Source: Ilumatobacteraceae bacterium
GTDB taxonomy: Bacteria > Actinomycetota > Acidimicrobiia > Acidimicrobiales > Ilumatobacteraceae
Reading direction: 5' to 3'
Length of the DNA: 64,000 bases
Assembly (NCBI GenBank): GCA_044340485.1
Contig: JBIITN010000004.1
Span: forward strand, 28,357-92,356
Notes under the pieces: model-generated
Seen by the model: the letters and a program-made list of their open reading frames with translations, nothing else
Databases searched by the model: none
What the model was told of the DNA's origin: nothing
Position numbers and translations under genes: made by a program
Shown: positions 6,059 to 43,964 of the stretch, piece by piece
How positions within the stretch are numbered: position 1 is the first letter of the stretch
Layout: each line of letters begins with the position of its first letter

Positions 6059-6079
6059 TCGCCACCGCTCCAGATGTAA

Positions 6080-7130: not shown

Positions 7131-7131
7131 T

Positions 7132-11051: not shown

Positions 11052-11092
11052 AAAGACCACGCTTAGACGTTTCAGGCATCTAGGGTACGGGC

Positions 11093-11386
11093 ATGGGCGG
11101 AAATTCAGGCTCTCTTGATGCAGAACTCGTGAAAAATATCGCACTCGGTGTGGGCATTGGCGTAATTGTTGTGGGGCTCATCCTCCTGAAGATTGTGCGC
11201 TCCATAGTGGGCAAGGTCATCTCTGCTGTTGTGCTCTTAGCTATTGCAATTGCGGTGTTCAGCCAAAGAGCAGCAATTGATGACTGCGCCAACAAAGTTC
11301 AAGAGCAAGCAGCATCTGGTCAAATCTCAACCATCCAGTGTCGTTTCTTTGGGCAGGATGTCAAAGTAGACGTCCCCGACCTATAA
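11093..11386 (+). CDS. small membrane protein, hypothetical
   Basis: 97 aa with two hydrophobic helices (IALGVGIGVIVVGLILL, AVVLLAIAIAVF). Confidence 0.5.
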   Translation: MGGNSGSLDAELVKNIALGVGIGVIVVGLILLKIVRSIVGKVISAVVLLAIAIAVFSQRAAIDDCANKVQEQAASGQISTIQCRFFGQDVKVDVPDL

Positions 11387-30682: not shown

Positions 30683-32203
30683 CTACCGGTGAATGTCGCT
30701 TCTTTCTTGAACCACTTTTAAACGCACCGTGTATGCAGAATCTCCCGACAACACTCCACTTCGACCAAACAGTCGACCGTGTTGCCAATTAGACAGTCCA
30801 AGTTCGGGGCGCTCAAGAGCAAACTGTCCATCCACCCAACGCGTAAATCCGTTCCCCACAAATGGTGCATTTACTTGCGACCACACTGTGTCAATTTCTT
30901 TTGAGTCATCGGCGATCACGCTGACCACAAATTGTGGACTGTAGGCATTGCATAAATCAATTGCATGCGCAAGATCATCAGCGACCACTAAGAAGAATTC
31001 AGGAGTTCCCTCCCACTCCCATTCCCTCGCCAGGTCAGACTCACTCGCACTACTGACCTGCTGTTCGCGGACAGTGCCACCAGCGCGAACAACATCGATT
31101 TCCACACTCGTCTGAAGCCACCGCTCAGCTCCAAACACACAGTGAATACGAGCGTGCGTATTGTGTTTTGCAGAGGCGCGCTCGGCGGCATCGAACACCA
31201 GCGGAATGTGAACAGCTGCTCTATCTTTCACTACACAGATGACGTTTGCGGTGTTGCAGACTTTCCGATCAAGCGAGAACTCAACAGCATCAGCCAACGA
31301 CCGATCCCCTGCACTCATCCCTGCCAGAATCCAGGCTCCGCCGGTTCCGTGAAGACTCACGGGTGTTCCCACTTGTTGTGCGATCGCCCCAAGTTCTGCG
31401 ACCGCTTCTCCGGATCCGCGCGCCACAGCAAGCGACACGCGAGCGTCATTAAATAACGCCCACCCCGCAGCGTGCTCGGGAGAGTCGATCAATGTCACCG
31501 CACCGCGCGGCAAACCCGCAGCCGCTAATGACGGCTCGATGATTGTGTCCATAATCGCGCGAGCAGTTCCGAGTGCATCGCTGCCAATGCGAAACACCAC
31601 CGTGTTTCCACCGCGTAGTACTCCCGTTGCGTCAGCAAAGACATTTGGTCTGCCTTCAAAAACAAAAGCTAAACAACCGAGCGGAGATCTCCATTGTTCG
31701 ACAGTCCATCCGTCGTGGGCAACCTCATCTATTTTCTCAGAGGTTGCCAGATCTAATGACTGCCACATACGAAGTGCGCCCACCATGTCGGCGCGCATTC
31801 CATCGGACAGAACCAGACGTGTGGTGGAACGTCCACGTTGTTTGGCCTGTGCTACATCGACCTCATTCGCAGACCGAATAGATGCAAACACATCGTCGTC
31901 TGCCAAACGTTGCGCAGACAGTTCAAAAAATCTGGTGATCTGTTCATCAGACACCAGCGACATCTGAGAAAAAGCACTGATAGCCCGAGTCACAGCGTTC
32001 TCTACCGTCTCTGCGACCCCAGTCGGAATGCGGCGCAACGCACCAGAATGAGCAATTCCCAGCACGACATCTCCTGGCTGGAGTGACTTTTCGAATTCCT
32101 GATCGATCTCGATGACACGAGAACCGACCAACACTCGATCGCCCGCCCGAAGAGTACGTGGCCCATCATTTGTGACACCAGGTGTATCTGAAGGCTCTTT
32201 CAC
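30683..32203 (-). CDS. divergent gamma-glutamyl phosphate reductase (ProA)-like aldehyde dehydrogenase with N-terminal extension
   Basis: FEGRPNVFADATGVLRGGNTVVFRIGSDA and a KVCNTANVICV Cys motif resemble ProA. Start uncertain: GTG 32203 was chosen to avoid overlap with the divergent 32222 gene (ORF-track start 32299). Confidence 0.6.
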   Translation of the reverse strand: MKEPSDTPGVTNDGPRTLRAGDRVLVGSRVIEIDQEFEKSLQPGDVVLGIAHSGALRRIPTGVAETVENAVTRAISAFSQMSLVSDEQITRFFELSAQRLADDDVFASIRSANEVDVAQAKQRGRSTTRLVLSDGMRADMVGALRMWQSLDLATSEKIDEVAHDGWTVEQWRSPLGCLAFVFEGRPNVFADATGVLRGGNTVVFRIGSDALGTARAIMDTIIEPSLAAAGLPRGAVTLIDSPEHAAGWALFNDARVSLAVARGSGEAVAELGAIAQQVGTPVSLHGTGGAWILAGMSAGDRSLADAVEFSLDRKVCNTANVICVVKDRAAVHIPLVFDAAERASAKHNTHARIHCVFGAERWLQTSVEIDVVRAGGTVREQQVSSASESDLAREWEWEGTPEFFLVVADDLAHAIDLCNAYSPQFVVSVIADDSKEIDTVWSQVNAPFVGNGFTRWVDGQFALERPELGLSNWQHGRLFGRSGVLSGDSAYTVRLKVVQERSDIHR

Positions 32204-32221
32204 ACGCCTATTCTGACCTGT

Positions 32222-32950
32222 GTGAGTACGACATCCACAGACGAATCCATTTACTTCCGCCAACTTCTCAGTGGGCGTGATTTTGCCAAGGATGATCAAG
32301 TCGCAGTAGGCATGGTGAATTTTGCCTACATCATTGGTGATCGGGCCACGGGTGAGTGCGTACTCATTGATCCGGCGTACTCGGTCAATGAGCTAATAGA
32401 CATCGTTGAAGCAGACGACATGCGTGTAACAGGCGTGCTTGCGACCCACTATCACCCCGATCACATTGGCGGTTCAATGATGGGCTTCAACATCGAAGGC
32501 ATCACCACCCTTCTTGAACGAATCCAGGTTCCCATTCACGTTCAAAAAGCTGAAGTTGATTCTGTGATCAAGGTAACTGGCGTATCACCCACCGAACTTT
32601 CTGCTCATGAACCAGGCGACGTCATTAGTGTTGGCAACCTCGATATCACTATGGTGCACACTCCAGGTCACACTCCAGGAAGCCAATGTTTCCTCGTGCG
32701 TGGAGCGCTCGTATCTGGAGACACTTTGTTTCTCGATAGCTGCGGTCGTACGGATCTACCCGATAGCAATGTTGAGGACATGTACGAGAGTTTGTCAACG
32801 TTGGCTCGTTTGCCCGATGACACCATTGTTTTACCCGGTCACCTGTACTCGCCAGCACCTGCTGCGTACTTAGGCGAAATAAAAGAGAAGAACATCGTCT
32901 ATAAACCCACAACCAAAGAGGCGTGGATGATGATGTTTCGTCGCGACTAA
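32222..32950 (+). CDS. MBL-fold metallo-hydrolase (glyoxalase II / persulfide dioxygenase-like)
   Basis: HYHPDHIGG (HxHxDH) and HTPGHTPGS. Confidence 0.83.
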   Translation: MSTTSTDESIYFRQLLSGRDFAKDDQVAVGMVNFAYIIGDRATGECVLIDPAYSVNELIDIVEADDMRVTGVLATHYHPDHIGGSMMGFNIEGITTLLERIQVPIHVQKAEVDSVIKVTGVSPTELSAHEPGDVISVGNLDITMVHTPGHTPGSQCFLVRGALVSGDTLFLDSCGRTDLPDSNVEDMYESLSTLARLPDDTIVLPGHLYSPAPAAYLGEIKEKNIVYKPTTKEAWMMMFRRD

Positions 32951-32958
32951 CGAGACCT

Positions 32959-33690
32959 TCACGACAACACTGCCGAAACGATGGTGGAAATTCCAGAAAT
33001 CACGAGCAGCGTTAATACCAAGATTCGAAATCGTTGTTGGTTGACATATTTTCGTGTCCTGAAGCCAAGCGCAATCGCGACGACAAGGATCGGCAATGAC
33101 ACCACTGTTGCGATGATTGAATCCGCCGTGATCTTGCCCGCAACAGCAAAGATTGTCACGGTCACAACGTTGGAGAAAATAAAAATGCGACTGACCGTGG
33201 CACGAAACACCTCCTGGGGCATTTGTCGCGCTTGAAACAGGAAAACCAGCGGTGGACCGTTTGTACCAACTGAGGTAGAGAGTGCTCCACTGGCTCCACC
33301 TAACCACCAATCAGCAGACCGGGATGCTCCTCGTAATGTGAATCCACGCATCAAAAGAAACGTCACAAACAACACAACAACCCCAAGACCAATCTTCAGA
33401 ATGGTCTCAGAGAGATAGATAAACGCAACCAATCCGATGGGCATCCCCATCACTGCTGCAATGGTCACTCGAACAGCTAGTCGAGCATTCGCATGCTCCT
33501 TTTCTTTCCATGCTTGCGCCGAAGTGGTGACTAAGCCGATGAGATTGACAACCACCACCGAGAGCCGTACATCAGCAAAAAGAGACATCAAAGGCACCGA
33601 CAACAATGCAAGCCCGAACCCGGATATTGACTGCACAAATGCAGCAATTGCCATCGCGCTGGCAATGCCGATGAGTTCAAGAACACTCAT
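32959..33690 (-). CDS. TauE/SafE family anion (sulfite-type) exporter
   Basis: 243-aa polytopic membrane protein with a Gly-rich repeated half structure. Its start overlaps the stop of the upstream aminotransferase by 4 nt. Confidence 0.75.
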   Translation of the reverse strand: MSVLELIGIASAMAIAAFVQSISGFGLALLSVPLMSLFADVRLSVVVVNLIGLVTTSAQAWKEKEHANARLAVRVTIAAVMGMPIGLVAFIYLSETILKIGLGVVVLFVTFLLMRGFTLRGASRSADWWLGGASGALSTSVGTNGPPLVFLFQARQMPQEVFRATVSRIFIFSNVVTVTIFAVAGKITADSIIATVVSLPILVVAIALGFRTRKYVNQQRFRILVLTLLVISGISTIVSAVLS

Positions 33691-35078
33691 GCAGACATCA
33701 ATACGTTGACAGCTTCAGCAAACACTTCAGTATGGGTGTCGACATCTTTTTCGGTATGAAAGGGCGACAGTAACGCCATGTTATGAAATGGTGTCAGCAA
33801 GATGCCACGGTTGAGAGCAAAGAGATGCATGAAAGCATCTAGTTCCCCATCGATTGCTGCAGCCGCTTGGGCGCCATTAACTGGAGGTGGGCAAAACCAG
33901 TATTCGGCTCTGCAGCCCAACTGCTGAACATTCCACGCGAGACCATGTCGCTCGTACCCTGATCGCACTCCCTCTGTCCATTGTGTTGCAAGCGGAATCA
34001 TGTGATCAAAATCTTCTTGTCGCAAGGTGGACGACAACGTGGCTCGCACTGCTGCAAGTGCTAGCGCATTCCCAGTGAGTGTTCCACCAACTCCCGATAC
34101 GTCAACGCCATCACTACGCAGATACGGCTCCAATTTGTCTGCAACTTCATCAGTCATGCCGTAGATAGCAGCAGGCATTCCCCCACCAATGGGTTTTCCA
34201 ATGACGAAAAAATCCGGCTCTAGATTCCACGCCTTTGTACATCCGCCTGGCCCTGCACAAATTGTGTGGGTCTCATCGATGATGAGCAACACTCCGTGCC
34301 GACGAGTGATCTCACGAACTTTCTCTAGATATCTGGGCTGTGGCAACACGATTCCGATGTTTGTGAGAGCTGGCTCCATGAGAAGACATGCAACATCTCC
34401 GTGTGCGAGAACTTTGTCTAGTGCATCTGCATCATTAAACGGCACAACACGTGTTGTTAGTGCGGGGTCCACCTGAGGACCAATCGCGCCGGGACGACTG
34501 ATGGTATTGCCCTTTTCATCCATGATGACGAGCGTTTCGTCGACCGTGCCGTGGTAACACCAGTCCATGACGGCAATTTTCGAACGTCCAGTCAATTGTC
34601 GTGCAAAACGAAGCACAAAACGATTGGCATCAGTTGCAGTCATCGCAAACTGCCACTTGGCGAGACCAAAGCGTTCCGTCAGTTCATCTCCGATCACGAC
34701 GGCATCTGTACTTGGCAACATCGTTGTGATGCCACGTCGGGCGCGCACAGCAAGTGCCTCTGCTACTTGGCTCAACCCGTGACCCGTCATTGCCCCGGTA
34801 TCGCCCAAGCAGAAGTCGATGAACTCATTTCCGTCGATGTCCACAAAATGGGCCCCATGCGCCTCTTCAAAAAAGACAGGGAACCCACCTGGCCAGCGAG
34901 TCATCCATGGCATCGGCACACCTGTCACCAGATGCTGCTGAGCGCGCAATGAATTCTCATACGAATTGGGGTGACGTGAAGCAAATACGTCACGTTCATC
35001 AGCAAGTGCAAGAGATAGACGATCGCGGTCGATTGATGCAGCCATGGTGTATCCACGATAGGACCCACCACTGACCAA
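33687..35078 (-). CDS. class-III (GSA-aminomutase-like) PLP-dependent aminotransferase
   Basis: LLIIDETHT and FFVIGKPIGGGMP (PLP lysine). The true start is probably ATG 35045 (MAASIDRD...). Confidence 0.85.
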   Translation of the reverse strand: MVSGGSYRGYTMAASIDRDRLSLALADERDVFASRHPNSYENSLRAQQHLVTGVPMPWMTRWPGGFPVFFEEAHGAHFVDIDGNEFIDFCLGDTGAMTGHGLSQVAEALAVRARRGITTMLPSTDAVVIGDELTERFGLAKWQFAMTATDANRFVLRFARQLTGRSKIAVMDWCYHGTVDETLVIMDEKGNTISRPGAIGPQVDPALTTRVVPFNDADALDKVLAHGDVACLLMEPALTNIGIVLPQPRYLEKVREITRRHGVLLIIDETHTICAGPGGCTKAWNLEPDFFVIGKPIGGGMPAAIYGMTDEVADKLEPYLRSDGVDVSGVGGTLTGNALALAAVRATLSSTLRQEDFDHMIPLATQWTEGVRSGYERHGLAWNVQQLGCRAEYWFCPPPVNGAQAAAAIDGELDAFMHLFALNRGILLTPFHNMALLSPFHTEKDVDTHTEVFAEAVNVLMSA

Positions 35079-35082
35079 CTCC

Positions 35083-36423
35083 GTGAATTTCCCACACGAT
35101 GGCCCGCATCATCAGTCTCTCCAAACCCCTGTCATTCCGAGATGTGGGGTTTACTTTTTGTACACTTGGAGTGTGTCTGTCTCGACCACCACGACATCTC
35201 GCATTGACGGCAACCGTCTAATGGAGCGTCTGTTTGCACTGGCAGACATTGGCGCGATTGATAACGGAGGCTGTGCTCGACTTGCACTCACCGATGACGA
35301 CAAGGCAGGTCGCGATCTCGTGGTGTCATGGATGCGCGATCTTGGTCTCGACATCTCTATTGACACCATTGGCAATGTCATCGGAGTGTGGAATGTTGGC
35401 ACCGGAGCCCCCGTCATGACAGGTTCCCACATTGACACCGTACGAACTGGCGGCAAGTACGACGGAAACCTTGGAGTTCTTGCCGGCCTTGAAGTCATTC
35501 AGTCGTGTCAAGAACAAGGGATCACTCCATCTCGACCACTCGCAGTTGGTTTCTTTACCGATGAGGAAGGTTCCCGCTTTCCTCCCGACATGCTCGGATC
35601 ACTGGTGTATGTCGGCGGTTTACCAGTGGAAGAAGCACACGATATTGTCGGAATTGATGGCGCACGTGTCGGTGACGAACTTGCACGTATCGGATATCTC
35701 GGTGCAACACCCTGTCCTGGTCTCGTACCTCACGCATTCGTTGAGTTACACATCGAACAAGGCCCAGTCCTCGAACAGAAAAACACTGTCATTGGCGCCG
35801 TCACATCTGTGCAAGGAATCAGCTGGCTTGAAGTAACGATCGACGGACAATCCAATCACGCAGGTACAACTCCAATGTCGATGCGACGCGATCCTGCGTA
35901 TGTGGCAGCGCGTATCGTGGTGTTTCTTCGCGAGATAGCCCATCGTTATGGCGGCCATCAAGTGTGCACAGTTGGCAAGATCGATGTGTTCCCCAATCTT
36001 GTCAACGTGGTGCCAGCAACCGCAACCATGACTCTTGATGTGCGCAACACTGACGAAGAGATATTGCAGAGAGCAGAAAAAGAGATTGCCGATTTCCTTA
36101 CCTCAATTGCCGTCGAAGAAAACGTCACAATCACCACGCGTTCGCTCGCTCGTTTTGAGCCAGTTCTTTTCCACCATGCGGTGATCGATACGGTCGAGAA
36201 CCTCGCACGGCAGCAAGGTCTCTCGGTCATGCAGATGCCATCTGGAGCCGGCCACGATGCGCAAATGCTCGCACGTGTGTGCCCAAGTGGGATGATTTTT
36301 GTGCCATCTCACAAAGGGATTAGCCACAACCCTGCTGAGTACACCGATCCCGACCAGCTCGTCGACGGTGCGAATCTTTTACTCCACGTGATGTTGCAAC
36401 TTGCTGAAACGAGTTTCTCATGA
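35083..36423 (+). CDS. M20 family amidohydrolase (allantoate amidohydrolase / N-carbamoyl-L-amino-acid hydrolase / beta-ureidopropionase type)
   Basis: GSHIDTVRTGGKYDGNLGV, FTDEEGSRF, SGAGHDAQ. The start is probably downstream (about 35158-35173). Confidence 0.85.
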   Translation: MNFPHDGPHHQSLQTPVIPRCGVYFLYTWSVSVSTTTTSRIDGNRLMERLFALADIGAIDNGGCARLALTDDDKAGRDLVVSWMRDLGLDISIDTIGNVIGVWNVGTGAPVMTGSHIDTVRTGGKYDGNLGVLAGLEVIQSCQEQGITPSRPLAVGFFTDEEGSRFPPDMLGSLVYVGGLPVEEAHDIVGIDGARVGDELARIGYLGATPCPGLVPHAFVELHIEQGPVLEQKNTVIGAVTSVQGISWLEVTIDGQSNHAGTTPMSMRRDPAYVAARIVVFLREIAHRYGGHQVCTVGKIDVFPNLVNVVPATATMTLDVRNTDEEILQRAEKEIADFLTSIAVEENVTITTRSLARFEPVLFHHAVIDTVENLARQQGLSVMQMPSGAGHDAQMLARVCPSGMIFVPSHKGISHNPAEYTDPDQLVDGANLLLHVMLQLAETSFS

Positions 36424-37346
36424 GTCGAATATTGACTATTGGCGCGGCCCAACTGGGCCCCATTCAGCGCGATGATTCTCGCGAGAATGTTGTGAAGCGC
36501 CTCGTTGCTCTGTTGCGACAAGCCTCTGAGCATCAATGTGATCTTGTGGTCTTTCCGGAACTTGCACTGACTACGTTTTTCCCTCGCTGGTTTGTCGATG
36601 ACATTGCAGAAGCTGATCATTGGTACGAAAAATCCATGCCGTCATCTGCTACTCAACCACTTTTTGATGAAGCGAGACGCCTGGGACTCGGCTTTTGTCT
36701 CGGCTACGCAGAAATAACCGAAGACGGACATCGATTCAACACACAAATTTTGGTGGAGCGAGATGGATCAGTGGTTGCGAAATATCGCAAAGTCCATATC
36801 CCTGGCCACGAGCACCACGAACCCGACCGCCCCTTTCAACATGCAGAGCGTTACTACTTTGAACCTTCAATGGAAGGTTTTGGAGTATGGAAAGCGTTCG
36901 ACGGACACGTGGGAATGATGATCTGCAACGATCGTCGTTGGCCAGAGTCATATCGTGTGATGGGACTTCAAGGGGCAGAATTAATTCTGTGTGGATACAA
37001 CACCCCCATTCACTATGTCCCCGATCCCAGCCAAGACATTTTGCAGGGATTTCACAACGCACTTGTTATGCAATCAGGTGCCTATCAAAACGGAACGTGG
37101 GTTGTAGGAGTTGCTAAGGCAGGTGTTGAGGAAGGCGTTGACAGCTTGGGCCAAAGCATGATTGTGGCGCCTTCCGGCCAAATCGTTGCTCAAACATTAA
37201 GTACCGATGACGAATTGATCATGGCGCGCTGCGATCTTGACTGGTGCAATAAATATAAGAACACCTTGTTTGACTTTGACCGCTACCGCCGTCCTGAGGT
37301 GTACGGACGAATCACATCACAACGCGGCGTCAAGCTCGAGGATTAG
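36420..37346 (+). CDS. carbon-nitrogen hydrolase, N-carbamoyl-D-amino-acid hydrolase-like
   Basis: Glu-Lys-Cys triad contexts VVFPELALTTFFPRW, KYRKVHIPG and MMICNDRRWPE. Collinear with my recollection of Agrobacterium D-carbamoylase. The ATG overlaps the upstream stop. Confidence 0.88.
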   Translation: MSRILTIGAAQLGPIQRDDSRENVVKRLVALLRQASEHQCDLVVFPELALTTFFPRWFVDDIAEADHWYEKSMPSSATQPLFDEARRLGLGFCLGYAEITEDGHRFNTQILVERDGSVVAKYRKVHIPGHEHHEPDRPFQHAERYYFEPSMEGFGVWKAFDGHVGMMICNDRRWPESYRVMGLQGAELILCGYNTPIHYVPDPSQDILQGFHNALVMQSGAYQNGTWVVGVAKAGVEEGVDSLGQSMIVAPSGQIVAQTLSTDDELIMARCDLDWCNKYKNTLFDFDRYRRPEVYGRITSQRGVKLED

Positions 37347-37348
37347 GC

Positions 37349-38410
37349 GTGTTAGAAACTCACGGTCTTGTGTGCGCCCACCATCACTTGTATTCGGCGC
37401 TCGCACGTGGGATGCCGGCGCCGCCAAAAACGCCTCACACATTTATTGAAGTACTCGAACAGGTGTGGTGGCGACTTGACGCCGCTCTCGATCTCGACAT
37501 GCTCTATTGGTCTGGAGCTCTCGGTGCAGCCGAAGCAGTGCTGTGTGGGACAACAGCCATCATCGACCATCACGAATCTCCGAATGCCATCGAAGGAAGC
37601 CTCTCAGCGCTTGCAGATGGAGCCGCCCTCGTTGGCGTGCGAACCAACTTGTGTTATGGCGTCACTGATCGCTGGGACGAAGCAGGTTTGTCTTCTCACG
37701 TCCCAACTCAACGTGCAATAACCGACGCGGCCCGTCGAGGACTTCTCGAGAATGAACGTTATTTACATGATGGCGGTCGGGGCATGATTGGCGTGCACGC
37801 GTCGTTTACATGTAGCGATGAATTACTGCACACAGCCGCAGACGCAGCACAACGCCTAGGGGTGGGAGTTCATATCCATGTAGCTGAAGGACCAGATGAT
37901 GCTGATGCATATTCGCGCCTAAAAGATCTTGCAACTGACGATTGGCTTCTTGTGCACTGTGTGAATCTGAAAGAAGAACTTCCCGGCACCATCGTGCACA
38001 ATCCACGATCAAACATGAATAACGCAGTCGGTTACGCAAGACCGACACGGTTCTCGAATCGAGTCGTGTTGGGAACTGATGGGATCGGCGCAGACATGTT
38101 TGATGAAGCACGACTCACGTATGTGAAACTTCGCGAAGACAATCTGACGGCAACTCCCGACACTGCATGGCAGTGGCTGACCAATGGTGAGGAACTTTTC
38201 CCGGAGGTTCGACAAGACCGCGTTATGTGGAATTACGATCACGTCGATAGTCCATGGCACATGGCATTCACCACAGGCGTTCGTCCAAACGACGTCTTTA
38301 TAAGCGGCAAACACGTTGTAAAAGACGGACAACCCGTCTCGTTCGACATTAATGAGATTCGAGCCAAAAGTGCTGAAGCTGCCATCCGACTACACAAGCG
38401 ACTCGCTTAG
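37349..38410 (+). CDS. SsnA-like amidohydrolase-superfamily protein, N-terminally short
   Basis: CAHHHLYSALARG, IIDHHESP, HIHVAEG, HNPRSNMNNAVGY and LGTDGIGADMF. GTG start lies 3 nt after the upstream stop. An in-frame stop at 37295-37297 forbids a longer N-terminus. Confidence 0.75.
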   Translation: MLETHGLVCAHHHLYSALARGMPAPPKTPHTFIEVLEQVWWRLDAALDLDMLYWSGALGAAEAVLCGTTAIIDHHESPNAIEGSLSALADGAALVGVRTNLCYGVTDRWDEAGLSSHVPTQRAITDAARRGLLENERYLHDGGRGMIGVHASFTCSDELLHTAADAAQRLGVGVHIHVAEGPDDADAYSRLKDLATDDWLLVHCVNLKEELPGTIVHNPRSNMNNAVGYARPTRFSNRVVLGTDGIGADMFDEARLTYVKLREDNLTATPDTAWQWLTNGEELFPEVRQDRVMWNYDHVDSPWHMAFTTGVRPNDVFISGKHVVKDGQPVSFDINEIRAKSAEAAIRLHKRLA

Positions 38411-38419
38411 GAGATACCG

Positions 38420-39283
38420 ATGACAGTTTTACTTCCTACTTCGCTTGATGAAGCACTACAGATGCTGTCAGAGCATCCGTCCGCAGATCTTTTGACTGGC
38501 GGAACAGATCTGATGGTGGAGGTCAATTTCAATCACCGCAAACCAACCACAGTGATTGCATTGCGGCAACTCGCCGAGTTGCACACCTGGTCGATAGACC
38601 AGCAAACACAACGGATCACAATCGGCGCCGGGGTTCCGTACGCCGAGATGGAACACGGCCCCTTGGCTGATGCTTTGCCGTGTTTGGCAGAAGCGGCGCG
38701 TACTGTGGGGTCTCCACAGATTCGCGCGGCAGGAACGTTGGGTGGCAACTTAGGAACCTGTTCACCCGCTGGTGATGGCCTACCTGTTTTGTCTGCTCTC
38801 GACGCAACGATTCATCTGTCTTCTCAGTCCGGTAGTCGCGAGATTTCCTTTCATGACTTCATGACGGGACCAAAACGCAATGCTCGACAACCGGGTGAGA
38901 TCATCACCAGCGTTTCAATGAACATCCCAACCGGCTGGCAAGGATACGCAAAAGTCGGAGTACGTAATGCAATGGTGATTTCCGTGGCCTCTGCGTGTTT
39001 AGTGATCGACAGCGGCTCCAATAGTAAAGACAACGACCAACCATCTGTTCGTATCGCTCTTGGTTCAGTAGGTCCCACCATCATTCGTTGTCGCGAGACC
39101 GAGAATTGGTGGAACAACCTCCCCAATGCTGAGAAACGTTCTGCGTCCGTTATTCAAGAATTTGGAGTTCGTGCGGGTCAAGAATCGCGACCTATTGATG
39201 ACCATCGATCCACCGCCGAGTATCGCCGTCATGCGATTTCTGTTTTGTCCAGTCGTCTTCTACACAGAGGAACACAATCATGA
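38420..39283 (+). CDS. xanthine dehydrogenase family FAD-binding (medium) subunit
   Basis: LLTGGTDLMVE and AGTLGGNLGT. Confidence 0.9.
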   Translation: MTVLLPTSLDEALQMLSEHPSADLLTGGTDLMVEVNFNHRKPTTVIALRQLAELHTWSIDQQTQRITIGAGVPYAEMEHGPLADALPCLAEAARTVGSPQIRAAGTLGGNLGTCSPAGDGLPVLSALDATIHLSSQSGSREISFHDFMTGPKRNARQPGEIITSVSMNIPTGWQGYAKVGVRNAMVISVASACLVIDSGSNSKDNDQPSVRIALGSVGPTIIRCRETENWWNNLPNAEKRSASVIQEFGVRAGQESRPIDDHRSTAEYRRHAISVLSSRLLHRGTQS

Positions 39284-39768
39284 GCGAACACGAGATCTAC
39301 ACACTGCGCATTAATGGTGACGAACACCATGTGAAAGACGCATGGATCGGAGAGTCACTTCTCTATGTTTTACGCGAGAGACTCGGACTTCCCGGCGCAA
39401 AGGGTGCCTGCGAGCAAGGCGAGTGTGGAAGTTGCACCGTGGTACTAGATGGCGATGCCGTGTGTAGCTGCTTGGTTCTCGCCGCTTCCGCGGTTGGTTC
39501 AGAGATTGCAACCGTCGAGGGTCTGAGCCCGGACGGATCACTCACTGATGTGCAGCAAGCGTTCATTGATGAAGGTGCAGTGCAGTGTGGCTTTTGCACG
39601 CCTGGTTTGATCATGGCTGTACACCATCTTCTTGACCACAACACAACACCAACCGAACTTGAGGTCAAAGAAGCACTGTCAGGAAACATTTGTCGCTGTA
39701 CGGGGTATGGACGAATCTTTGCAGCAGTTGACAAAGTTGTATCAGTTCGCTTAGGAGCATCGCAATGA
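39280..39768 (+). CDS. xanthine dehydrogenase family [2Fe-2S] (small) subunit
   Basis: CEQGECGSCTV, CGFCTPGLIM, CRCTGY. Overlaps the upstream stop. Confidence 0.93.
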   Translation: MSEHEIYTLRINGDEHHVKDAWIGESLLYVLRERLGLPGAKGACEQGECGSCTVVLDGDAVCSCLVLAASAVGSEIATVEGLSPDGSLTDVQQAFIDEGAVQCGFCTPGLIMAVHHLLDHNTTPTELEVKEALSGNICRCTGYGRIFAAVDKVVSVRLGASQ

Positions 39769-42035
39769 GCAGCGTCTCTACGTCCACTCGTCAACGTGAT
39801 GTATTGGGCACAAGTGCACTACGTCCAGACGGCGGAGCCAAAGTACAGGGATCATTTGCGTTCTCTTCAGACCTGTGGGCAGAAAACATGTTGTGGGGTG
39901 CAACACTTCGCTCGCCACACCCGTATGCGCGCATTATCTCGATTGATACAACTGCTGCATGGAAGATTGCAGGTGTTGAAACCATCATCACCCATGAAGA
40001 TGTACCCGGGCAGTTGACATACGGCCTCATTTCCAGTGATCAACCCGTGTTTGCCAAAGATTTTGTACGTTACATGGGGGAACCTATCGCAGCAGTAGCT
40101 GCGGATCATCCTGAGACATGCCGTCGTGCACTCGCAGCGATTGTTGTGGAGTACGAAGTTCTCACCCCTCTAGCAGACGGAGAACGCGCTCTCGACCCAA
40201 CAGTTGCTCCTATTCACCCAGACGGAAATGTGATTCGCGAGTTACAGATCATTCGCGGTGATCAAAGCGCCACCGGGCCAATTGTTGTCGAAGGTACCTA
40301 TGAGTTAGGCATTCAAGATCAAGCGTTCTTAGGCACAGAAGCAGCACTTGCACTTCCCGATCATGATGGAAAAGGCGTGGACGTGTATGTGGCCACACAG
40401 TGGTTGCATGAAGACCAAAAGCAAATGGCTGCATGCCTCAACCTGCCTGTCGACAAGGTTCGCCTCACTTTGGGCGGTGTTGGAGGTGCATTCGGCGCGC
40501 GGGAAGACATCAGTCTGCAAGTGCACTGTGCGCTACTGGCACTGCGCACATCGCGACCAATCAAAATGCAATATGGACGCGAAGAGAGTTTCTTTGGCCA
40601 TGTCCATCGCCATCCGGCCAAGATTTGGATGCGTCACCACGCAGATGCCGACGGACGAATCATCAGAGTCGAGTCGCGGATGTTGCTCGACGGTGGAGCG
40701 TATGCCTCTACATCGTCTGCAGTGTTGACCAACGCAGCAACTCATGCACAGGGTCCGTACAAATGTGACAACGCAACCGTCTATAGCTATGCGGTGCGCA
40801 CCAATAATCCACCGTGCGGTGCGATGCGTGGATTTGGCGTTGTTCAAGCCTGTTTTGCTCATGAAAGTCAAATGGACAAGATTGCAGCTGCTGCTCTTAT
40901 CAGCCCAGTTGAAGTGCGACTGCGCAATGCGATGGAAACCGGCGATTTACTCATCACCGGTCAACCCGTTGAAAGCGTCGCACCAGTTGCTCGTTGCATT
41001 CGTGAGACTGCGGCACTTCCAATGCCAGATGAATTATCACCTACACCCGATCCGCTGGAATTACCCGGCGGATCTGGGCGCACAGCTGACCGTCAACACA
41101 TCAAGCGCGGTATTGGCTGGGGTGTCTCAATTAAGAACATCATGTACTCAGAGGGCTTCGATGATTACTCCACAGCACGCGTGACCTTGCAAGACGGTGT
41201 AGTGACCTTGAAATTCGCCACCAGCGAAGTGGGACAAGGTTTTGTCACTCTTGCGCCACAGATAGCTCGCACAGTTCTTGGCGTTGATCAGATACTGATT
41301 GATCCCATGGATACAAGCATTGGATCAGCCGGCTCCACCAGTGCGTCACGACAAACATGGATGAGTGGCGGTGCCGTTGATGGAGCATGTCGCCTCGTTC
41401 GTGAACGCCTCTTTGAACGCGTGGGTCAACAACACAACATTGATCCCCTGCGCCTTGCCATCGATGGGACTGACGTGGTCGACACAATGGGCGATCTTCG
41501 CATCTCTGTCGCTGAAGCGACACTTGGCCAGCGTTTTGAGGAAACATTCGAGTATCACCATCGCCCAACTGAAGACCTTGACGAGAACGGACAAGGAAAC
41601 TGCCATGTGGCGTTCGCATTTGTTGCACACCGCGCAGTTGTTGATGTCGATACAGAACTCGGATTAGTCAAGGTCGTGCAGGTTGCTACTGCACAAGACA
41701 TTGGACGAGCTCTCAACCCACTATCAGTAGTAGGTCAAATTGAAGGTGGCATTGCCCAAGGACTTGGTCTTGCTGTTATGGAAGAAATCATTGTCGACAA
41801 TGGCCGGGTACGAAATCCTAGTTTCACCGATTACTTGTTGCCCACCGCTCTCGATGCGCCAGTAGTTGTCGCATCATTTGTGGAGGAACCAGATCCACAG
41901 GCGCCGTTAGGCGCAAAGGGCGTGGGAGAGCCACCGTGTATTTCGGTTACCCCAGCCATTGTTGCTGCTATTCGCGACGCAACCGGCAAGGATCTCTCTC
42001 GCGTCCCTGTGCGACCGTACGATATTTGTTTGTGA
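39765..42035 (+). CDS. xanthine dehydrogenase family molybdopterin-binding (large) subunit, XdhA/PucD-like
   Basis: 756 aa. GGVGGAFGARED, PPCGAMRGFG, GAKGVGEPP. Overlaps the upstream stop. Confidence 0.92.
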   Translation: MSSVSTSTRQRDVLGTSALRPDGGAKVQGSFAFSSDLWAENMLWGATLRSPHPYARIISIDTTAAWKIAGVETIITHEDVPGQLTYGLISSDQPVFAKDFVRYMGEPIAAVAADHPETCRRALAAIVVEYEVLTPLADGERALDPTVAPIHPDGNVIRELQIIRGDQSATGPIVVEGTYELGIQDQAFLGTEAALALPDHDGKGVDVYVATQWLHEDQKQMAACLNLPVDKVRLTLGGVGGAFGAREDISLQVHCALLALRTSRPIKMQYGREESFFGHVHRHPAKIWMRHHADADGRIIRVESRMLLDGGAYASTSSAVLTNAATHAQGPYKCDNATVYSYAVRTNNPPCGAMRGFGVVQACFAHESQMDKIAAAALISPVEVRLRNAMETGDLLITGQPVESVAPVARCIRETAALPMPDELSPTPDPLELPGGSGRTADRQHIKRGIGWGVSIKNIMYSEGFDDYSTARVTLQDGVVTLKFATSEVGQGFVTLAPQIARTVLGVDQILIDPMDTSIGSAGSTSASRQTWMSGGAVDGACRLVRERLFERVGQQHNIDPLRLAIDGTDVVDTMGDLRISVAEATLGQRFEETFEYHHRPTEDLDENGQGNCHVAFAFVAHRAVVDVDTELGLVKVVQVATAQDIGRALNPLSVVGQIEGGIAQGLGLAVMEEIIVDNGRVRNPSFTDYLLPTALDAPVVVASFVEEPDPQAPLGAKGVGEPPCISVTPAIVAAIRDATGKDLSRVPVRPYDICL

Positions 42036-42038
42036 GAA

Positions 42039-43964
42039 CTAACTCAGAGCGTTGTACTGCTCTGGTTTGATCTCTTGCACTTGTTGCCAGTACTCAAGCA
42101 GGCTAAACGGCCAGTTTTGTGCAACACGGTTGTATTCGTTGCGGTACCACGAATTCACTGTGGCAACTCCCCACACCATGCCGGCATTGCCCTGGTCGAC
42201 ACGCTCGTTATACGCGTTGTGCACTTCTTGCTTCACATCAAGGGCTTTCAAGTTGTTTCGCAATAAGTGTTCGACATAGCGCATCACATAGGTGACTTCG
42301 CATTCAGTGAAATAGATGATGCTTCCGTTTACAACGATGTTGGTGTTTGGACCGTAGAGAATGAAGAAGTTCGGGAACTTTGGAACTGTGACACCCATGA
42401 ATGCACGAGCGTCGCCTTTCCATTCGCGCTGCAATTCGACTCCATTCAAGCCGACAACTTCCATTGGCATAAGGAACTTTGATGGCTGGAAGCCAGTTGC
42501 GTAGATGATGATATCCACTTCACGAAGTACACCTTCCACGTCACGAACGCCGTTTTCCTCAATTGATGCGATTCGATCGGTTACAAGCGACACGTTGTCA
42601 CGCTTTAGCGTGCGCGCCCAAATGCCGTTATCAACCACAATTCGCTTCGATGCTGGCGGATACTGGGGAATCACTTTCTCGAGTAGATCAGGGCGGTCGC
42701 CGAATTGCTCAGTGAGGTAATCCACGAGCATCGCGCGCATTTCTTGGTTTGCCGGACTCACCGAAAGAGTTTGATCTTTCCAATTTGGGTCCACCTGACA
42801 TGCGGGCAACATGCCCTCACTTCCACGCCAGAACAGCCAGAAGCGATACCACTGGGCGTAGCCAGGAATATTTCCAAACAACCACTGTAAACCTGGTGCT
42901 ACTGACTCGTGGTACTCAGGAATTCCAAAGAACCAGTTTGGCGTGCGTTGATACAAATCAACATGAGCAGCTTGCGCCGCGACAGTTGGCATCAACTGAA
43001 CTGCGCTAGCAGCAGAACCTATGACTGCCACACGCTTTCCTTTGATGTCGACATCTGTGCGATAGCGAGCTGTATGCCAACTTTCGCCCTTGAACTTATC
43101 GATGCCAACAACATCTGGCATGTTGGGACGATTCAACTGACCGACAGCTGAGATGACTGCATCTGCTTCAAAATTCTTTTTCTGACCATTTGAAGTGGTC
43201 TCCACCGTCCACTTGCCTGATTTTTCATCAAATACACTGCGGTGTACTTCGGTATTGAAGTTGATCAATGGACGAATGCCGAATTTGTCTGCACAATTGC
43301 GGAAATAATCAAGCAAAGTTGCTTGTGCTGAGTAATAACCTGGCCAGTCATTGCGTTGTTCGAACGAGTAGCTATACATGTGGTTCGCGACATCTACGCG
43401 ACAACCTGGGTACACGTTCTCGAGCCATGTACCACCAACGTCGGCATTCTTATCGACTAATTCAACCTCGACACCTGCCTGACGCAAACGGTGAGCGGCA
43501 AGGATGCCAGACATTCCTGCACCGACTATCAACACCTTGAACGAGCGTCCGGGGGCAATGTCTTTCAAGTTCCACTGCGGAGCACGAAGATCATCGCCAG
43601 TCACTGACAACTCTTCTTTGAGCAACGGCAAATAGTTGGCGTCCATTGACGTTCCCGACGCCCATTCCATTGCTTTGCGCATGTCATCGTCCGAACGAGA
43701 CAACTCAACATTTGCACCGCTATCACGGAACTTCTTCAGCACAGCCAGGGCAATCGTGCGAATCTCGGCCTGCTGTTCGTCTGTCATTCCACCTTGTGGC
43801 ATTCCTACGAGTGCGGGGTCAGGTCGAAGGTGTGGCTTCAAGATCGTGTAGTTACCTGTGATATACGCAAGTGCCGGCAACAACGACGGACACGAGGCGT
43901 CGGCCAAGTGCTGCTCGAGTTCTGAGTCGGACACGTTTTTCGGGAATGAAACGGCTTTTGTCAT
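42039..43964 (-). CDS. Baeyer-Villiger monooxygenase, long HAPMO-like type with ~140-aa N-terminal extension
   Basis: IVGAGMSGI, GGTWLENVYPGCRVD (BVMO-specific motif), FKGESWHTARY (fingerprint with His retained, Trp to Tyr), VIGSAASAVQ. Start taken at ATG 43964. Confidence 0.85.
   Translation of the reverse strand: MTKAVSFPKNVSDSELEQHLADASCPSLLPALAYITGNYTILKPHLRPDPALVGMPQGGMTDEQQAEIRTIALAVLKKFRDSGANVELSRSDDDMRKAMEWASGTSMDANYLPLLKEELSVTGDDLRAPQWNLKDIAPGRSFKVLIVGAGMSGILAAHRLRQAGVEVELVDKNADVGGTWLENVYPGCRVDVANHMYSYSFEQRNDWPGYYSAQATLLDYFRNCADKFGIRPLINFNTEVHRSVFDEKSGKWTVETTSNGQKKNFEADAVISAVGQLNRPNMPDVVGIDKFKGESWHTARYRTDVDIKGKRVAVIGSAASAVQLMPTVAAQAAHVDLYQRTPNWFFGIPEYHESVAPGLQWLFGNIPGYAQWYRFWLFWRGSEGMLPACQVDPNWKDQTLSVSPANQEMRAMLVDYLTEQFGDRPDLLEKVIPQYPPASKRIVVDNGIWARTLKRDNVSLVTDRIASIEENGVRDVEGVLREVDIIIYATGFQPSKFLMPMEVVGLNGVELQREWKGDARAFMGVTVPKFPNFFILYGPNTNIVVNGSIIYFTECEVTYVMRYVEHLLRNNLKALDVKQEVHNAYNERVDQGNAGMVWGVATVNSWYRNEYNRVAQNWPFSLLEYWQQVQEIKPEQYNALS

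What the first reader, a model, noticed from the sequence alone, without database searches (positions are those of the whole stretch)
33687..42035. Operon joining L- and D-type carbamoylases, an SsnA-like amidohydrolase and a three-subunit XDH-family molybdoenzyme
Six plus-strand genes (35083-42035) are joined by 4-nt overlaps or gaps of 9 nt or less, so they are very likely one transcript. The combination suggests a route: hydroxylation of an N-heterocycle by the molybdoenzyme, ring opening by the amidohydrolase-superfamily protein, decarbamoylation, then transamination by the divergent class-III aminotransferase. It matches neither the standard hydantoin-utilisation set (no hydantoinase or racemase) nor the standard purine set (no uricase or allantoinase). 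This may be an uncharacterised heterocycle catabolic route.
Basis: partly seen in the sequence, partly recalled or inferred. Interest (0 to 1): 0.6.

Follow-up and report, generated by a model that had tools for sequence, protein, structure and literature searches.

The report
Split F420-type reductive urate-breakdown operon
This six-gene operon of a small freshwater actinobacterium is most likely one half of a purine (uric acid) breakdown pathway related to the "reductive" route solved in gut anaerobes in 2025, with several enzymes swapped and two key genes moved to another place in the genome.

Summary
Six + strand genes are chained by ATGA overlaps or gaps of 2 and 9 nt: an M20 carbamoylase, a D-carbamoylase, a short SsnA-like amidohydrolase and PucC/E/D-like xanthine dehydrogenase subunits. 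A class-III aminotransferase lies divergent to them.

The route is not wholly uncharacterised. In other Acidimicrobiia the same genes form an eight-gene cluster in which SsnA is flanked by a FAD-less FeS-Mo hydroxylase (TIGR03311, XdhAC type) and a Mer-like F420-dependent reductase. That trio mirrors XdhD/XdhAC, SsnA and YgfK of the reductive uric-acid (2,8-dioxopurine) pathway.

In this genus the hydroxylase-reductase pair has moved to another contig (C28). It is kept in 17 of 18 congeners, and both halves carry the same palindromic promoter element.

The genome makes F420 (FbiC) and has an unlinked HyuA-like hydantoinase that co-occurs with short SsnA. It lacks OHCU decarboxylase, YgfK, YgeW/X/Y and YqeB/C.

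Best reading (about 0.6): xanthine goes to urate, then 2,8-dioxopurine, then F420H2 reduction, SsnA ring opening, hydantoinase and two carbamoylases. This is a new variant of a known pathway. All chemistry is inferred from homology and gene context.

The parts
33687..35045 (-). Class-III (GSA-aminomutase-like) aminotransferase, PRK07046 subfamily. It is divergent from the operon and is an optional neighbour of the cluster.
   Evidence: Pfam Aminotran_3 and NF005453 at 640 bits (cut-off 425). Closest solved structure is 5ykr, 'probable aminotransferase', E 2e-127. Present in 10 of 40 well-flanked loci and absent from L001, L009, L012 and L025.
35150..35166 (+). Conserved promoter/operator-like element TTTACTTTTTGTACACT (family consensus TTTACA-N3-TGTAAA). 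Its right half holds a -10-like TACACT, 6 nt before GTG 35173.
   Evidence: The same element precedes M20 in 7 relatives and XdhAC-like genes in 14 congeners. A PWM built from the XdhAC-upstream sites of other genomes ranks this site 4th of 3.6 million positions in the own genome. The element is the best hit in whole loci of eight-gene relatives, where it lies in the CNh|XdhAC gap.
35173..36423 (+). M20-family N-carbamoyl-L-amino-acid / beta-ureidopropionase-type amidohydrolase ('L-type carbamoylase'). Proposed to remove one ureido group of 2,3-diureidopropionate.
   Evidence: TIGR01879 at 424 bits (cut-off 204) and NF006771 at 431 bits (cut-off 399). Closest solved structures are 5thw/5i4m, L-carbamoylase 3n5f and N-carbamoyl-beta-alanine amidohydrolase 8c46. 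No similarity to E. coli YgeY at E 1e-3.
36420..37346 (+). N-carbamoyl-D-amino-acid hydrolase (DCase, CN-hydrolase superfamily). Proposed to remove the second ureido group.
   Evidence: Pfam CN_hydrolase. Full-length match to solved DCases: 8i99 E 2e-122, 1fo6 E 2e-101. It is the most constant neighbour of short SsnA, present in 31 of 40 loci.
37349..38410 (+). Short SsnA-family amidohydrolase (353 aa, beginning at the HxH metal motif). Proposed ring-opening enzyme.
   Evidence: SsnA models are by far the best hits but fall below their cut-offs (252 against 444). It is 34% identical to E. coli SsnA residues 57-438 and is its reciprocal best hit. It is nested inside the SsnA clade in a tree. 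The 353-aa form is conserved in thousands of sequences. The AlphaFold model has pLDDT 92.6 and a complete amidohydrolase barrel.
38420..39283 (+). FAD-binding subunit of a three-subunit xanthine-dehydrogenase-family enzyme (PucC/XdhB-like).
   Evidence: Pfam FAD_binding_5 and CO_deh_flav_C. XdhB NF043083 scores 179 bits, below its cut-off of 310.
39280..39768 (+). 2Fe-2S subunit (PucE/XdhC-like).
   Evidence: Pfam Fer2 and Fer2_2. NF043084 scores 176 bits, below its cut-off of 217.
39765..42035 (+). Molybdopterin subunit (PucD-like). Probable xanthine/hypoxanthine hydroxylase that feeds urate into the route.
   Evidence: TIGR03196 pucD at 831 bits (cut-off 784). Equivalents of Glu802, Arg880, Phe1009 and Glu1261 are kept in the alignment with rat XDH, but the Phe914 equivalent is not.
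42044..42065 (+). Terminator-like hairpin just after the Mo-subunit stop. It lies inside the 3' end of the convergent BVMO gene.
   Evidence: Consensus scan only. This is weak evidence.

Best explanation
The operon is one half of a purine (urate) catabolic system. That system is a re-tooled version of the reductive uric-acid / 2,8-dioxopurine pathway.

Proposed flow:
1. The PucCED-like dehydrogenase of the operon oxidises hypoxanthine/xanthine to urate.
2. The FAD-less FeS-Mo hydroxylase encoded on contig C28 (XdhAC/DOPDH type) removes the 6-oxo group to give 2,8-dioxopurine.
3. The Mer-like F420H2-dependent LLM reductase encoded next to it dearomatises this compound. It takes the place of YgfK/UacX.
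4. The short SsnA of the operon opens the six-membered ring.
5. An unlinked HyuA-like D-hydantoinase opens the five-membered ring, giving 2,3-diureidopropionate.
6. The D-carbamoylase and the M20 carbamoylase of the operon hydrolyse the two ureido groups. They take the place of YgeW/UacY and YgeY. The products are 2,3-diaminopropionate, NH3 and CO2.
7. The fate of diaminopropionate is open. There is no YgeX, and the divergent aminotransferase is one candidate.

Shown here: gene order, conservation, orthology relations, genome inventory and a shared cis element. Inferred: every substrate, product and cofactor.
For: 1. In 80 species-level Acidimicrobiia loci, short SsnA has an XdhAC-like gene within 4.5 kb upstream in 40 of 61 evaluable loci and the LLM gene within 3.5 kb downstream in 43 of 69. 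In 40 loci with at least 6 kb on both sides, CNh is present in 31, M20 in 23 and the PucD-like XDH in 18.
2. The XdhAC-like protein passes the TIGR03311 cut-off (848 against 830). The LLM is closest to F420-dependent Mer.
3. The own genome keeps both as an overlapping gene pair on C28. 17 of 18 same-genus genomes keep the pair in the same arrangement.
4. Short SsnA is the reciprocal best hit of E. coli SsnA (34%) and is nested in the SsnA clade, away from 8-oxoguanine and guanine deaminases.
5. A 41%-identical SsnA relative (L118) sits with YgfK-like, OTCase-like, M20, PALP and an XdhAC-like protein that is 51% identical to the own one, next to urate oxidase and OHCU decarboxylase genes.
6. 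A marine relative (L065) adds 8-oxoguanine deaminase, a purine phosphoribosyltransferase-like gene and a D-hydantoinase to the cluster.
7. The own genome has FbiC and a HyuA reciprocal best hit (39%). It has no OHCU decarboxylase.
8. Short SsnA and the hydantoinase orthologue co-occur in 151 genomes of the order: 45 have both, 5 SsnA only, 8 hydantoinase only and 93 neither.
9. The same palindromic element precedes both halves of the split cluster.
10. PMC12507026 shows that E. coli XdhD reduces urate to 2,8-dioxopurine, that YgfK with SsnA reduces it and opens the ring, and that HyuA with YgeW/UacY and YgeY completes the breakdown to diaminopropionate. It also notes an F420-type luciferase-family enzyme in place of YgfK in Chloroflexota.
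Against: - No enzyme of this lineage has been assayed.
- Short SsnA misses the curated SsnA cut-offs and lacks about 55 N-terminal residues.
- There are no orthologues of YgfK, YgeW, YgeX, YgeY or YqeA.
- There are no YqeB/YqeC selenium-cofactor genes, although the XdhAC family is described as selenium dependent.
- The electron donor for urate reduction in an apparent aerobe is unknown.
- The hydantoinase is unlinked and could serve pyrimidine catabolism instead.
- No NCS2 nucleobase permease was found.
- The phyletic association is not corrected for phylogeny.
- Co-transcription and co-expression of the two loci were not tested.
Confidence: 0.6

Rival explanations
1. The architecture is the same (Mo hydroxylases, F420 reductase, SsnA-type ring opening, two carbamoylases) but it acts on a different N-heterocycle: another oxopurine, a pteridine/lumazine or a pyrimidine derivative. 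Urate and 2,8-dioxopurine would then not be the intermediates.
For: - All substrate assignments rest on homology at 24-51% identity.
- The downstream enzymes are not orthologous to YgeW, YgeY or YgeX.
- The short SsnA clade is a distinct, long-branched subfamily with its own insertion and a lost N-terminus.
- The closest solved relative of the LLM acts on a pterin derivative (Mer).
Against: - Purine-linked genes recur in the wider clusters: the PucD equivalog, 8-oxoguanine deaminase and a purine PRT-like gene. A related cluster lies next to urate oxidase and OHCU decarboxylase genes.
- The active-site motifs of short SsnA match those of E. coli SsnA closely.
- The XdhAC-like protein keeps the Glu/Arg/Glu set typical of purine hydroxylases.
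Confidence: 0.2
2. A reductive pyrimidine-type route. The LLM would stand in for dihydropyrimidine dehydrogenase and SsnA or the hydantoinase would act as dihydropyrimidinase. The DCase or M20 enzyme would act as beta-ureidopropionase and the aminotransferase as beta-alanine/beta-aminoisobutyrate transaminase. The xanthine dehydrogenase would merely be co-located.
For: - The M20 enzyme resembles beta-alanine synthases and N-carbamoyl-beta-alanine amidohydrolase.
- The hydantoinase passes the dihydropyrimidinase model TIGR02033.
- The aminotransferase has beta-transaminases among its solved relatives.
Against: - This route gives no role to the two Mo hydroxylases, which are the tightest partners of SsnA.
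- The aminotransferase is present in only a quarter of loci.
- SsnA groups with experimentally defined uricolytic SsnA, not with dihydropyrimidinases.
Confidence: 0.07
3. The genes are an operon of convenience. Under this reading a xanthine dehydrogenase serves purine salvage or oxidation, and two carbamoylases scavenge N-carbamoyl amino acids. The SsnA-like protein acts as an unrelated deaminase, so there is no shared pathway.
For: - Each protein family has known stand-alone roles.
- The cluster has been rearranged in this genus without loss of genes.
Against: - The set is conserved across many families of Acidimicrobiia with translational coupling.
- Both halves are kept after the split.
- They share a cis element.
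Confidence: 0.05

Closest known systems
Reductive uric-acid / 2,8-dioxopurine pathway cluster of E. coli (xdhD-ygfM, ygfK, ssnA, hyuA, ygeW, ygeY, ygeX, yqeA) and of Clostridium sporogenes / C. difficile (xdhAC, ygfK or uacX, ssnA, hyuA, ygeW or uacY, ygeY, ygeX). Sources: PMC12507026 and bioRxiv 10.1101/2025.04.24.650524.
   Same: - An SsnA-family ring-opening amidohydrolase (34% identity, reciprocal best hit).
- A FAD-less fused FeS-Mo hydroxylase of the XdhAC type (TIGR03311), paired with SsnA in relatives.
- A reductase next to SsnA.
- A HyuA-like hydantoinase in the genome (39% identity).
- Two separate enzymes that remove ureido groups.
- An accompanying xanthine dehydrogenase.
   Different: - The reductase is a Mer-like F420-dependent LLM enzyme, not YgfK or UacX.
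- The ureido groups are removed by a DCase and an M20 L-carbamoylase-type hydrolase, not by a carbamoyltransferase with carbamate kinase (so no ATP gain) or by YgeY.
- There is no diaminopropionate ammonia-lyase.
- There are no YqeB/YqeC selenium-cofactor genes.
- SsnA lacks the N-terminal 55 residues.
- The host is a small-genome freshwater Acidimicrobiia bacterium, not a gut anaerobe.
- In this genus the cluster is split over at least three loci.
Earlier agents of this scan reported the same cluster in other genomes.
   Same: Orthologous genes at 56-88% identity in the same order. The same divergent aminotransferase/TauE/MBL neighbourhood occurs in Ilumatobacteraceae-type genomes. The same palindromic cis element is present.
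   Different: In this window XdhAC and LLM have been cleanly removed from either side of SsnA (remaining gaps of 2 and 9 nt). They sit together as an overlapping pair on another contig. The cis element now precedes both M20 and XdhAC.
Bacillus subtilis PucABCDE xanthine dehydrogenase with the oxidative urate pathway (PucLM uricase, PucH allantoinase, PucF allantoate amidohydrolase).
   Same: The Mo subunit passes the PucD equivalog model. The M20 enzyme belongs to the same broad family as PucF.
   Different: There is no OHCU decarboxylase in the genome, and no uricase or allantoinase genes in the cluster. The M20 enzyme is closer to L-carbamoylases and beta-ureidopropionases than to allantoate amidohydrolases.
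Hydantoin-utilisation (hyu) clusters: hydantoinase, hydantoin racemase and a D- or L-carbamoylase.
   Same: A genuine DCase and an L-carbamoylase-type M20 enzyme.
   Different: There is no hydantoinase or racemase in the operon. Both carbamoylase types occur together and are coupled to SsnA and Mo hydroxylases.

Membership tests
Reductive uric-acid / 2,8-dioxopurine pathway | An SsnA-family amidohydrolase, judged by orthology to the assayed E. coli SsnA | tested here: met
   34% identity over E. coli residues 57-438, reciprocal best hit in the genome. Nested within the SsnA clade (96/98 support) and separated from 8-oxoguanine and guanine deaminases (100/99).
Reductive uric-acid / 2,8-dioxopurine pathway | SsnA reaches the curated family cut-off (NF005540 / TIGR03314) | tested here: not met
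   252 and 242 bits against cut-offs of 444 and 455. The match covers model positions 60-354 only.
Reductive uric-acid / 2,8-dioxopurine pathway | A FAD-less FeS-Mo hydroxylase (XdhD / XdhAC, DOPDH) encoded with SsnA | tested here: inconclusive
   Absent from the window's operon. Present on contig C28 (861 aa, TIGR03311 at 848 bits against a cut-off of 830) and adjacent to SsnA in other genera. It is 51% identical to the homologue in a canonical YgfK-type cluster but only 24% identical to E. coli XdhD.
Reductive uric-acid / 2,8-dioxopurine pathway | A YgfK or UacX reductase | tested here: not met
   No YgfK orthologue; there is only a partial 28% match to a different gene on C9. A Mer-like F420 LLM enzyme occupies the position next to SsnA or XdhAC instead.
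Reductive uric-acid / 2,8-dioxopurine pathway | A HyuA hydantoinase | tested here: met
   C44:7248-8702 passes TIGR02033 (466 bits against 393) and is 39% identical to E. coli HyuA as reciprocal best hit. It is unlinked to the operon but co-occurs with short SsnA: 45/5/8/93 in 151 genomes.
Reductive uric-acid / 2,8-dioxopurine pathway | YgeW/UacY and YgeY for ureido removal, YgeX diaminopropionate ammonia-lyase and YqeA carbamate kinase | tested here: not met
   tblastn with the E. coli proteins gave no hits at E 1e-6. TIGR01747 scored at best 39 bits against a cut-off of 274. A DCase and an M20 carbamoylase are present instead.
Reductive uric-acid / 2,8-dioxopurine pathway | The selenium-cofactor trait (SelD with YqeB and YqeC) for the Mo hydroxylases | tested here: not met
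   SelD is present but sits with SelA and SelB, which is the selenocysteine trait. YqeB scored 20 bits against a cut-off of 220, and YqeC was absent.
Reductive uric-acid / 2,8-dioxopurine pathway | Conversion of urate through 2,8-dioxopurine to diaminopropionate | not testable with these tools
   This needs enzymology or labelled-substrate experiments.
Xanthine dehydrogenase, PucCDE type | The Mo subunit reaches the PucD equivalog cut-off and keeps the catalytic Glu and the substrate-binding Glu and Arg | tested here: met
   TIGR03196 at 831 bits against 784. GAREd, MRGFG and GVGEPP align with Glu802, Arg880 and Glu1261 of rat XDH. The Phe914 equivalent is not kept.
Xanthine dehydrogenase, PucCDE type | The FAD and FeS subunits reach the PucC and PucE equivalog cut-offs | tested here: not met
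   pucC scored 75 bits against 306 and pucE 152 against 254. XdhB- and XdhC-type models score higher but also fall below their cut-offs.
N-carbamoyl-D-amino-acid hydrolase (DCase) | Full-length similarity to solved DCases, and the Glu-Lys-Cys triad motifs | tested here: met
   8i99 E 2e-122 and 1fo6 E 2e-101 over residues 1-304. FPELAL, YRKVHIPG and MMICNDRRW are readable in the translation. Assigning these motifs to the catalytic triad rests on my own knowledge of the Agrobacterium DCase.
Oxidative urate pathway (uricase, HIU hydrolase, OHCU decarboxylase, allantoinase) | OHCU decarboxylase in the genome | tested here: not met
   PF09349 gave no match in a genome that is 99.9% complete, and the control genomes responded. 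Uricase itself was not searched for.
Hydantoin-utilisation cluster | A hydantoinase and a racemase next to the carbamoylase | tested here: not met
   Neither is in the operon or its flanks. The only D-hydantoinase lies on another contig next to argJ.

The most novel reading that the evidence does not exclude
An abundant oxygen-respiring freshwater actinobacterium cleaves the purine ring without oxygen-dependent uricase chemistry. It would use a selenium-cofactor-independent 2,8-dioxopurine dehydrogenase and F420H2.

The FAD-containing xanthine dehydrogenase of this operon would hand the electrons it takes from xanthine to the FAD-less XdhAC-type enzyme. Xanthine would thereby be isomerised, redox-neutrally, to 2,8-dioxopurine before F420-dependent reduction and SsnA ring opening.

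After the cluster split, the physically separated halves would be held together as a regulon by one dedicated regulator that binds TTTACA-N3-TGTAAA.
Probability: 0.15. Interest if true: 0.75.

Novelty: new variant of a known kind. Interest (0 to 1): 0.55.

Why it matters
The reductive urate pathway was described in 2025 as a trait of anaerobic gut bacteria that depends on selenium and on YgfK or UacX. If the reading here is right, a variant runs in Acidimicrobiia, which are widespread in lakes, soils and the sea. About a third of genomes sampled from this order carry short SsnA.

That variant would use an F420-dependent reductase, purely hydrolytic carbamoylases and no selenium-cofactor genes. 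It would change which organisms are credited with purine-nitrogen recycling in oxic waters. It would add a physiological role for F420 in Actinomycetota and give a function to a very large family of unannotated 353-aa "cytosine/adenosine deaminase-related" proteins.

The split form in this genome is also useful in its own right. It offers a natural test of which genes must stay co-regulated, and it points to a candidate operator.

Tried and rejected
- **Oxidative urate pathway.** Rejected because the genome has no OHCU decarboxylase. Uricase and allantoinase models were not run separately.
- **Selenium-dependent Mo hydroxylase maturation.** SelD was found but belongs to a selA-selB-selD set, and YqeB and YqeC are absent. 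The label "selenium-dependent" is therefore not adopted.
- **Truncated-pseudogene reading of short SsnA.** Rejected. The 353-aa form is conserved in thousands of sequences, the metal and catalytic motifs are invariant, and the model is a confident full barrel.
- **M20 enzyme as allantoate amidohydrolase.** Not favoured. L-carbamoylase and beta-ureidopropionase structures score higher than AllC.
- **Naive ORF clustering of loci.** This mis-called genes in high-GC loci and fused the LLM with the FAD subunit. It was replaced by tblastn mapping.
- **PWM from the seven M20-upstream sites.** These sites are nearly identical, so the PWM is over-fitted and ranked the XdhAC site only 305th. Only the reciprocal test was informative.
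- **Other top genome hits of the motif.** They are not next to related genes.
- **NCS2 nucleobase permease.** None was found, so the uptake route is unknown.
- **PDB entry 5ykr.** A literature search gave nothing useful on the aminotransferase.

Full report
**Observation.**
The junctions, read directly, are:
- M20/CN-hydrolase: ATGA overlap.
- CN-hydrolase/SsnA-like: TAG-GC-GTG, a 2-nt gap.
- SsnA-like/FAD subunit: TAG then 9 nt, with an AGGAG overlapping the stop.
- FAD/FeS and FeS/Mo: ATGA overlaps.

The Mo gene ends 3 nt before the stop of a convergent BVMO gene. No internal terminator-like site stands out above chance. The packing is typical of one translationally coupled transcript.

Two coordinates need correction. 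Homology of the M20 protein starts near residue 35 of the 35083 ORF, and a -10-like TACACT (35161-35166) lies 6 nt before GTG 35173. The gene therefore probably starts there on a leaderless mRNA. The aminotransferase probably starts at the ATG at 35045.

**Gene identities.**
- Gene 1 is an M20 amidase of the hydantoinase/carbamoylase family. It is closest to L-carbamoylases and N-carbamoyl-beta-alanine amidohydrolases, and less close to allantoate amidohydrolase.
- Gene 2 is a full-length N-carbamoyl-D-amino-acid hydrolase (8i99, E 2e-122).
- Gene 3 is a 353-aa amidohydrolase. Its best family by far is SsnA (252 bits; the next family scores 83), but it starts at the HxH motif and misses the curated cut-off.
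- Genes 4-6 are the FAD, 2Fe-2S and Mo subunits of a xanthine-dehydrogenase-family enzyme. The Mo subunit passes the PucD equivalog cut-off and keeps the Glu802, Arg880, Phe1009 and Glu1261 equivalents.
- The divergent gene is a PRK07046 class-III aminotransferase.

**The organism and the short SsnA.**
Homologues and loci place the window in freshwater Acidimicrobiia of the Ilumatobacteraceae type. The assembly is 1.80 Mb and 99.9% complete.

The 353-aa SsnA form is not a truncation artefact:
- Thousands of sequences have this length.
- 34 diverse members keep all metal and catalytic motifs invariant.
- The AlphaFold model is confident (pLDDT 92.6) and is a complete amidohydrolase barrel.

**What the neighbours show.**
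I mapped the window's proteins onto 80 species-level loci found with a short-SsnA profile. They revealed a fuller and evidently older arrangement: M20, CN-hydrolase, a fused 2Fe-2S/Mo protein of about 870 aa, short SsnA, a 335-aa luciferase-like protein, then FAD-FeS-Mo.

The fused protein passes the TIGR03311 'selenium-dependent xanthine dehydrogenase' cut-off. The luciferase-like protein is closest to F420-dependent methylene-H4MPT reductase.

Linkage counts:

| Neighbour of short SsnA | Loci with it | Loci evaluable |
|---|---|---|
| Fused hydroxylase within 4.5 kb upstream | 40 | 61 |
| LLM gene within 3.5 kb downstream | 43 | 69 |
| DCase (at least 6 kb flanks on both sides) | 31 | 40 |
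| M20 | 23 | 40 |
| PucD-like dehydrogenase | 18 | 40 |
| Aminotransferase | 10 | 40 |

**The window is one part of a split cluster.**
The own genome encodes the fused hydroxylase (861 aa, 848 bits against a cut-off of 830) and the LLM reductase as an overlapping gene pair on a different contig, C28. The operon lies in the middle of a 95-kb contig, so the pair is not a near neighbour.

All same-genus genomes with a hit (17 of 18) have the same hydroxylase-LLM pair without SsnA between them. Other genera of the order keep M20-DCase-hydroxylase-SsnA. The split is therefore a fixed, genus-level rearrangement in which no gene was lost.

**Link to a known pathway.**
Two 2025 studies solved the reductive uric-acid (2,8-dioxopurine) route. 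One is PMC12507026; the other is bioRxiv 10.1101/2025.04.24.650524. Its steps are:
- XdhD-YgfM or XdhAC (a FAD-less FeS-Mo enzyme) reduces urate to 2,8-dioxopurine.
- YgfK or UacX reduces that compound.
- HyuA opens the hydantoin ring.
- YgeW/UacY and YgeY remove two ureido groups.
- YgeX deaminates diaminopropionate.

PMC12507026 also remarks that Chloroflexota have an F420-type luciferase-family enzyme in place of YgfK.

Against the E. coli proteins:
- Short SsnA is 34% identical and is the reciprocal best hit. It shares the motifs WWRLD-ALD, IDHH-SP, HIH-AE, HN-RSNMNN-VGY and LGTDGIG-DMF-E.
- A gene on contig C44 is 39% identical to HyuA, is its reciprocal best hit, and passes the D-hydantoinase model.
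- YgfK, YgeW, YgeX, YgeY and YqeA have no orthologues.

In a maximum-likelihood tree the short clade is nested inside the SsnA family, which includes E. coli SsnA, and is well separated from 8-oxoguanine and guanine deaminases.

Its sister group contains a 400-aa protein (L118). That protein's neighbours are YgfK-like, OTCase-like, M20 and PALP genes, plus an XdhAC-like protein 51% identical to the own one. The cluster lies beside urate oxidase and OHCU decarboxylase genes.

A marine relative (L065) adds a purine PRT-like gene, 8-oxoguanine deaminase, an amidase, a creatininase-family protein and a D-hydantoinase to the cluster.

**Genome inventory.**
- FbiC (FO synthase) is present, so F420 can be made.
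- OHCU decarboxylase is absent.
- SelD is present but sits with SelA and SelB. YqeB and YqeC are absent, so the selenium-cofactor trait tied to these hydroxylases in gut bacteria is not present.
- An 8-oxoguanine deaminase equivalog lies on C41.
- No NCS2 permease was found.

Across 151 genomes of the order, short SsnA and the hydantoinase orthologue co-occur strongly: 45 have both, 5 SsnA only, 8 hydantoinase only and 93 neither. The odds ratio is 105 and Fisher's p is 2e-24, uncorrected for phylogeny. In several genomes the two genes are within 10 kb of each other. This makes the unlinked hydantoinase a credible pathway member.

**A shared cis element.**
Directly upstream of M20 in this genus, and directly upstream of the relocated hydroxylase gene, lies the same element. 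Its consensus is TTTACA-N3-TGTAAA, and the right half doubles as a -10 box a few bases before the start codon.

A matrix built only from hydroxylase-upstream sites of other genomes ranks the window's site (35150-35166) 4th among 3.6 million positions of the own genome. The reverse test was uninformative because its training sites are nearly identical.

In eight-gene relatives the element is the single best hit in whole 15-21 kb loci, and it falls in the DCase|hydroxylase gap. It is thus a cluster-specific element older than the split. It is the best available sign that the two halves are still co-regulated.

**Proposed mechanism.**
The steps are those given in the best explanation: xanthine, urate, 2,8-dioxopurine, F420H2-dependent reduction, SsnA ring opening, hydantoinase, then DCase and M20 carbamoylase acting on the two ureido groups of (R)-2,3-diureidopropionate.

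The D-specific DCase fits the alpha-ureido group of a D-configured acid. The M20 enzyme, which is related to beta-ureidopropionases, fits the beta-ureido group.

The end of the route is open. The aminotransferase (with the syntenic ProA-like aldehyde dehydrogenase) might handle diaminopropionate, but it is missing from most loci.

Shown here: gene order, coupling, conservation, orthology relations, presence and absence of partner genes, and the cis element. Inferred: all substrates, the use of F420, the direction of the hydroxylase reaction, and the electron donor.

**Rivals.**
- The same architecture could act on another heterocycle (0.2).
- A pyrimidine-type reductive route leaves the two Mo enzymes without a role (0.07).
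- An operon of unrelated functions is hard to reconcile with class-wide conservation and with retention of both halves after the split (0.05).

**Novelty and limits.**
The pathway type is known. The variant has the following features:
- an F420 LLM reductase;
- hydrolytic DCase and M20 carbamoylases;
- a short SsnA;
- no selenium-cofactor genes;
- a host that appears to be aerobic.

This variant is, to my knowledge and per three literature searches, not described beyond the one-line remark on Chloroflexota.

Earlier agents of this scan reached the same reading for the eight-gene form in other genomes. I reached it before reading their notes, and they are not independent evidence. What this window adds is the split form, the shared operator-like element and the hydantoinase co-occurrence.

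No expression data and no biochemistry exist for any member of this lineage.

Noticed in passing
Own genome contig C28 (locus L086) 4726-8315, minus strand; outside the window: The XdhAC-like FeS-Mo hydroxylase (5730-8315) and the F420 LLM reductase (4726-5733) overlap by 4 nt. Together they form the relocated half of the cluster. A PRK07487 amidase-signature gene (3279-4688) lies convergent to them, and a different amidase follows the LLM gene in marine relatives (L065, L059).
   Followed up: partly
window 37346-37349 and 38410-38420: Relatives carry the hydroxylase gene (about 2.6 kb) and the LLM gene (about 1 kb) at these two junctions. Here only 2 nt and 9 nt remain, with no gene remnants. 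How two non-adjacent genes left one operon and ended up adjacent elsewhere is unexplained; duplication followed by reciprocal loss is one possibility.
   Followed up: partly
Own genome C12 (locus L090) 4497-8581: A selB-selA / selD gene set (the selenocysteine decoding trait) occurs in a 1.8-Mb freshwater actinobacterium. Pre-mycofactocin synthase MftD lies nearby (9968-11143). The selenoprotein(s) it serves were not identified.
   Followed up: no
window 57531-57547, minus strand (C39:85887): This is a weaker match (score 16) to the cluster's TTTACA-N3-TGTAAA-type element. It lies 12 nt upstream of a possible start of a 464-aa BVMO-like ORF, and it may be a chance hit.
   Followed up: no
window 30683-33690: A ProA-like aldehyde dehydrogenase, an MBL-fold hydrolase and a TauE-family membrane protein are syntenic with the aminotransferase and the cluster, but only in Ilumatobacteraceae-type genomes. 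They are absent from more distant clusters, and their relation to the pathway is unknown.
   Followed up: partly
Locus L065 963-20368 (marine Acidimicrobiales MAG): This extended cluster contains a purine PRT-like gene, XDH and M20, followed by DCase, XdhAC, SsnA and LLM. After those come an amidase, an unknown 301-aa protein, a MATE transporter and 8-oxoguanine deaminase. It ends with a creatininase-family protein, a D-hydantoinase and a second F420 LLM enzyme. It is a good starting point for finding the missing terminal steps.
   Followed up: partly
Own genome, whole: No NCS2 (xanthine/uracil permease) family transporter was detected, although the genome carries a purine-catabolic gene set. 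The route of substrate entry is unknown.
   Followed up: no
Own genome C31:19406-21631 and C35:20731-24359: There are two further xanthine-dehydrogenase/CO-dehydrogenase-family loci in this 1.8-Mb genome, 25-28% identical to the operon's Mo subunit. They were not characterised.
   Followed up: no
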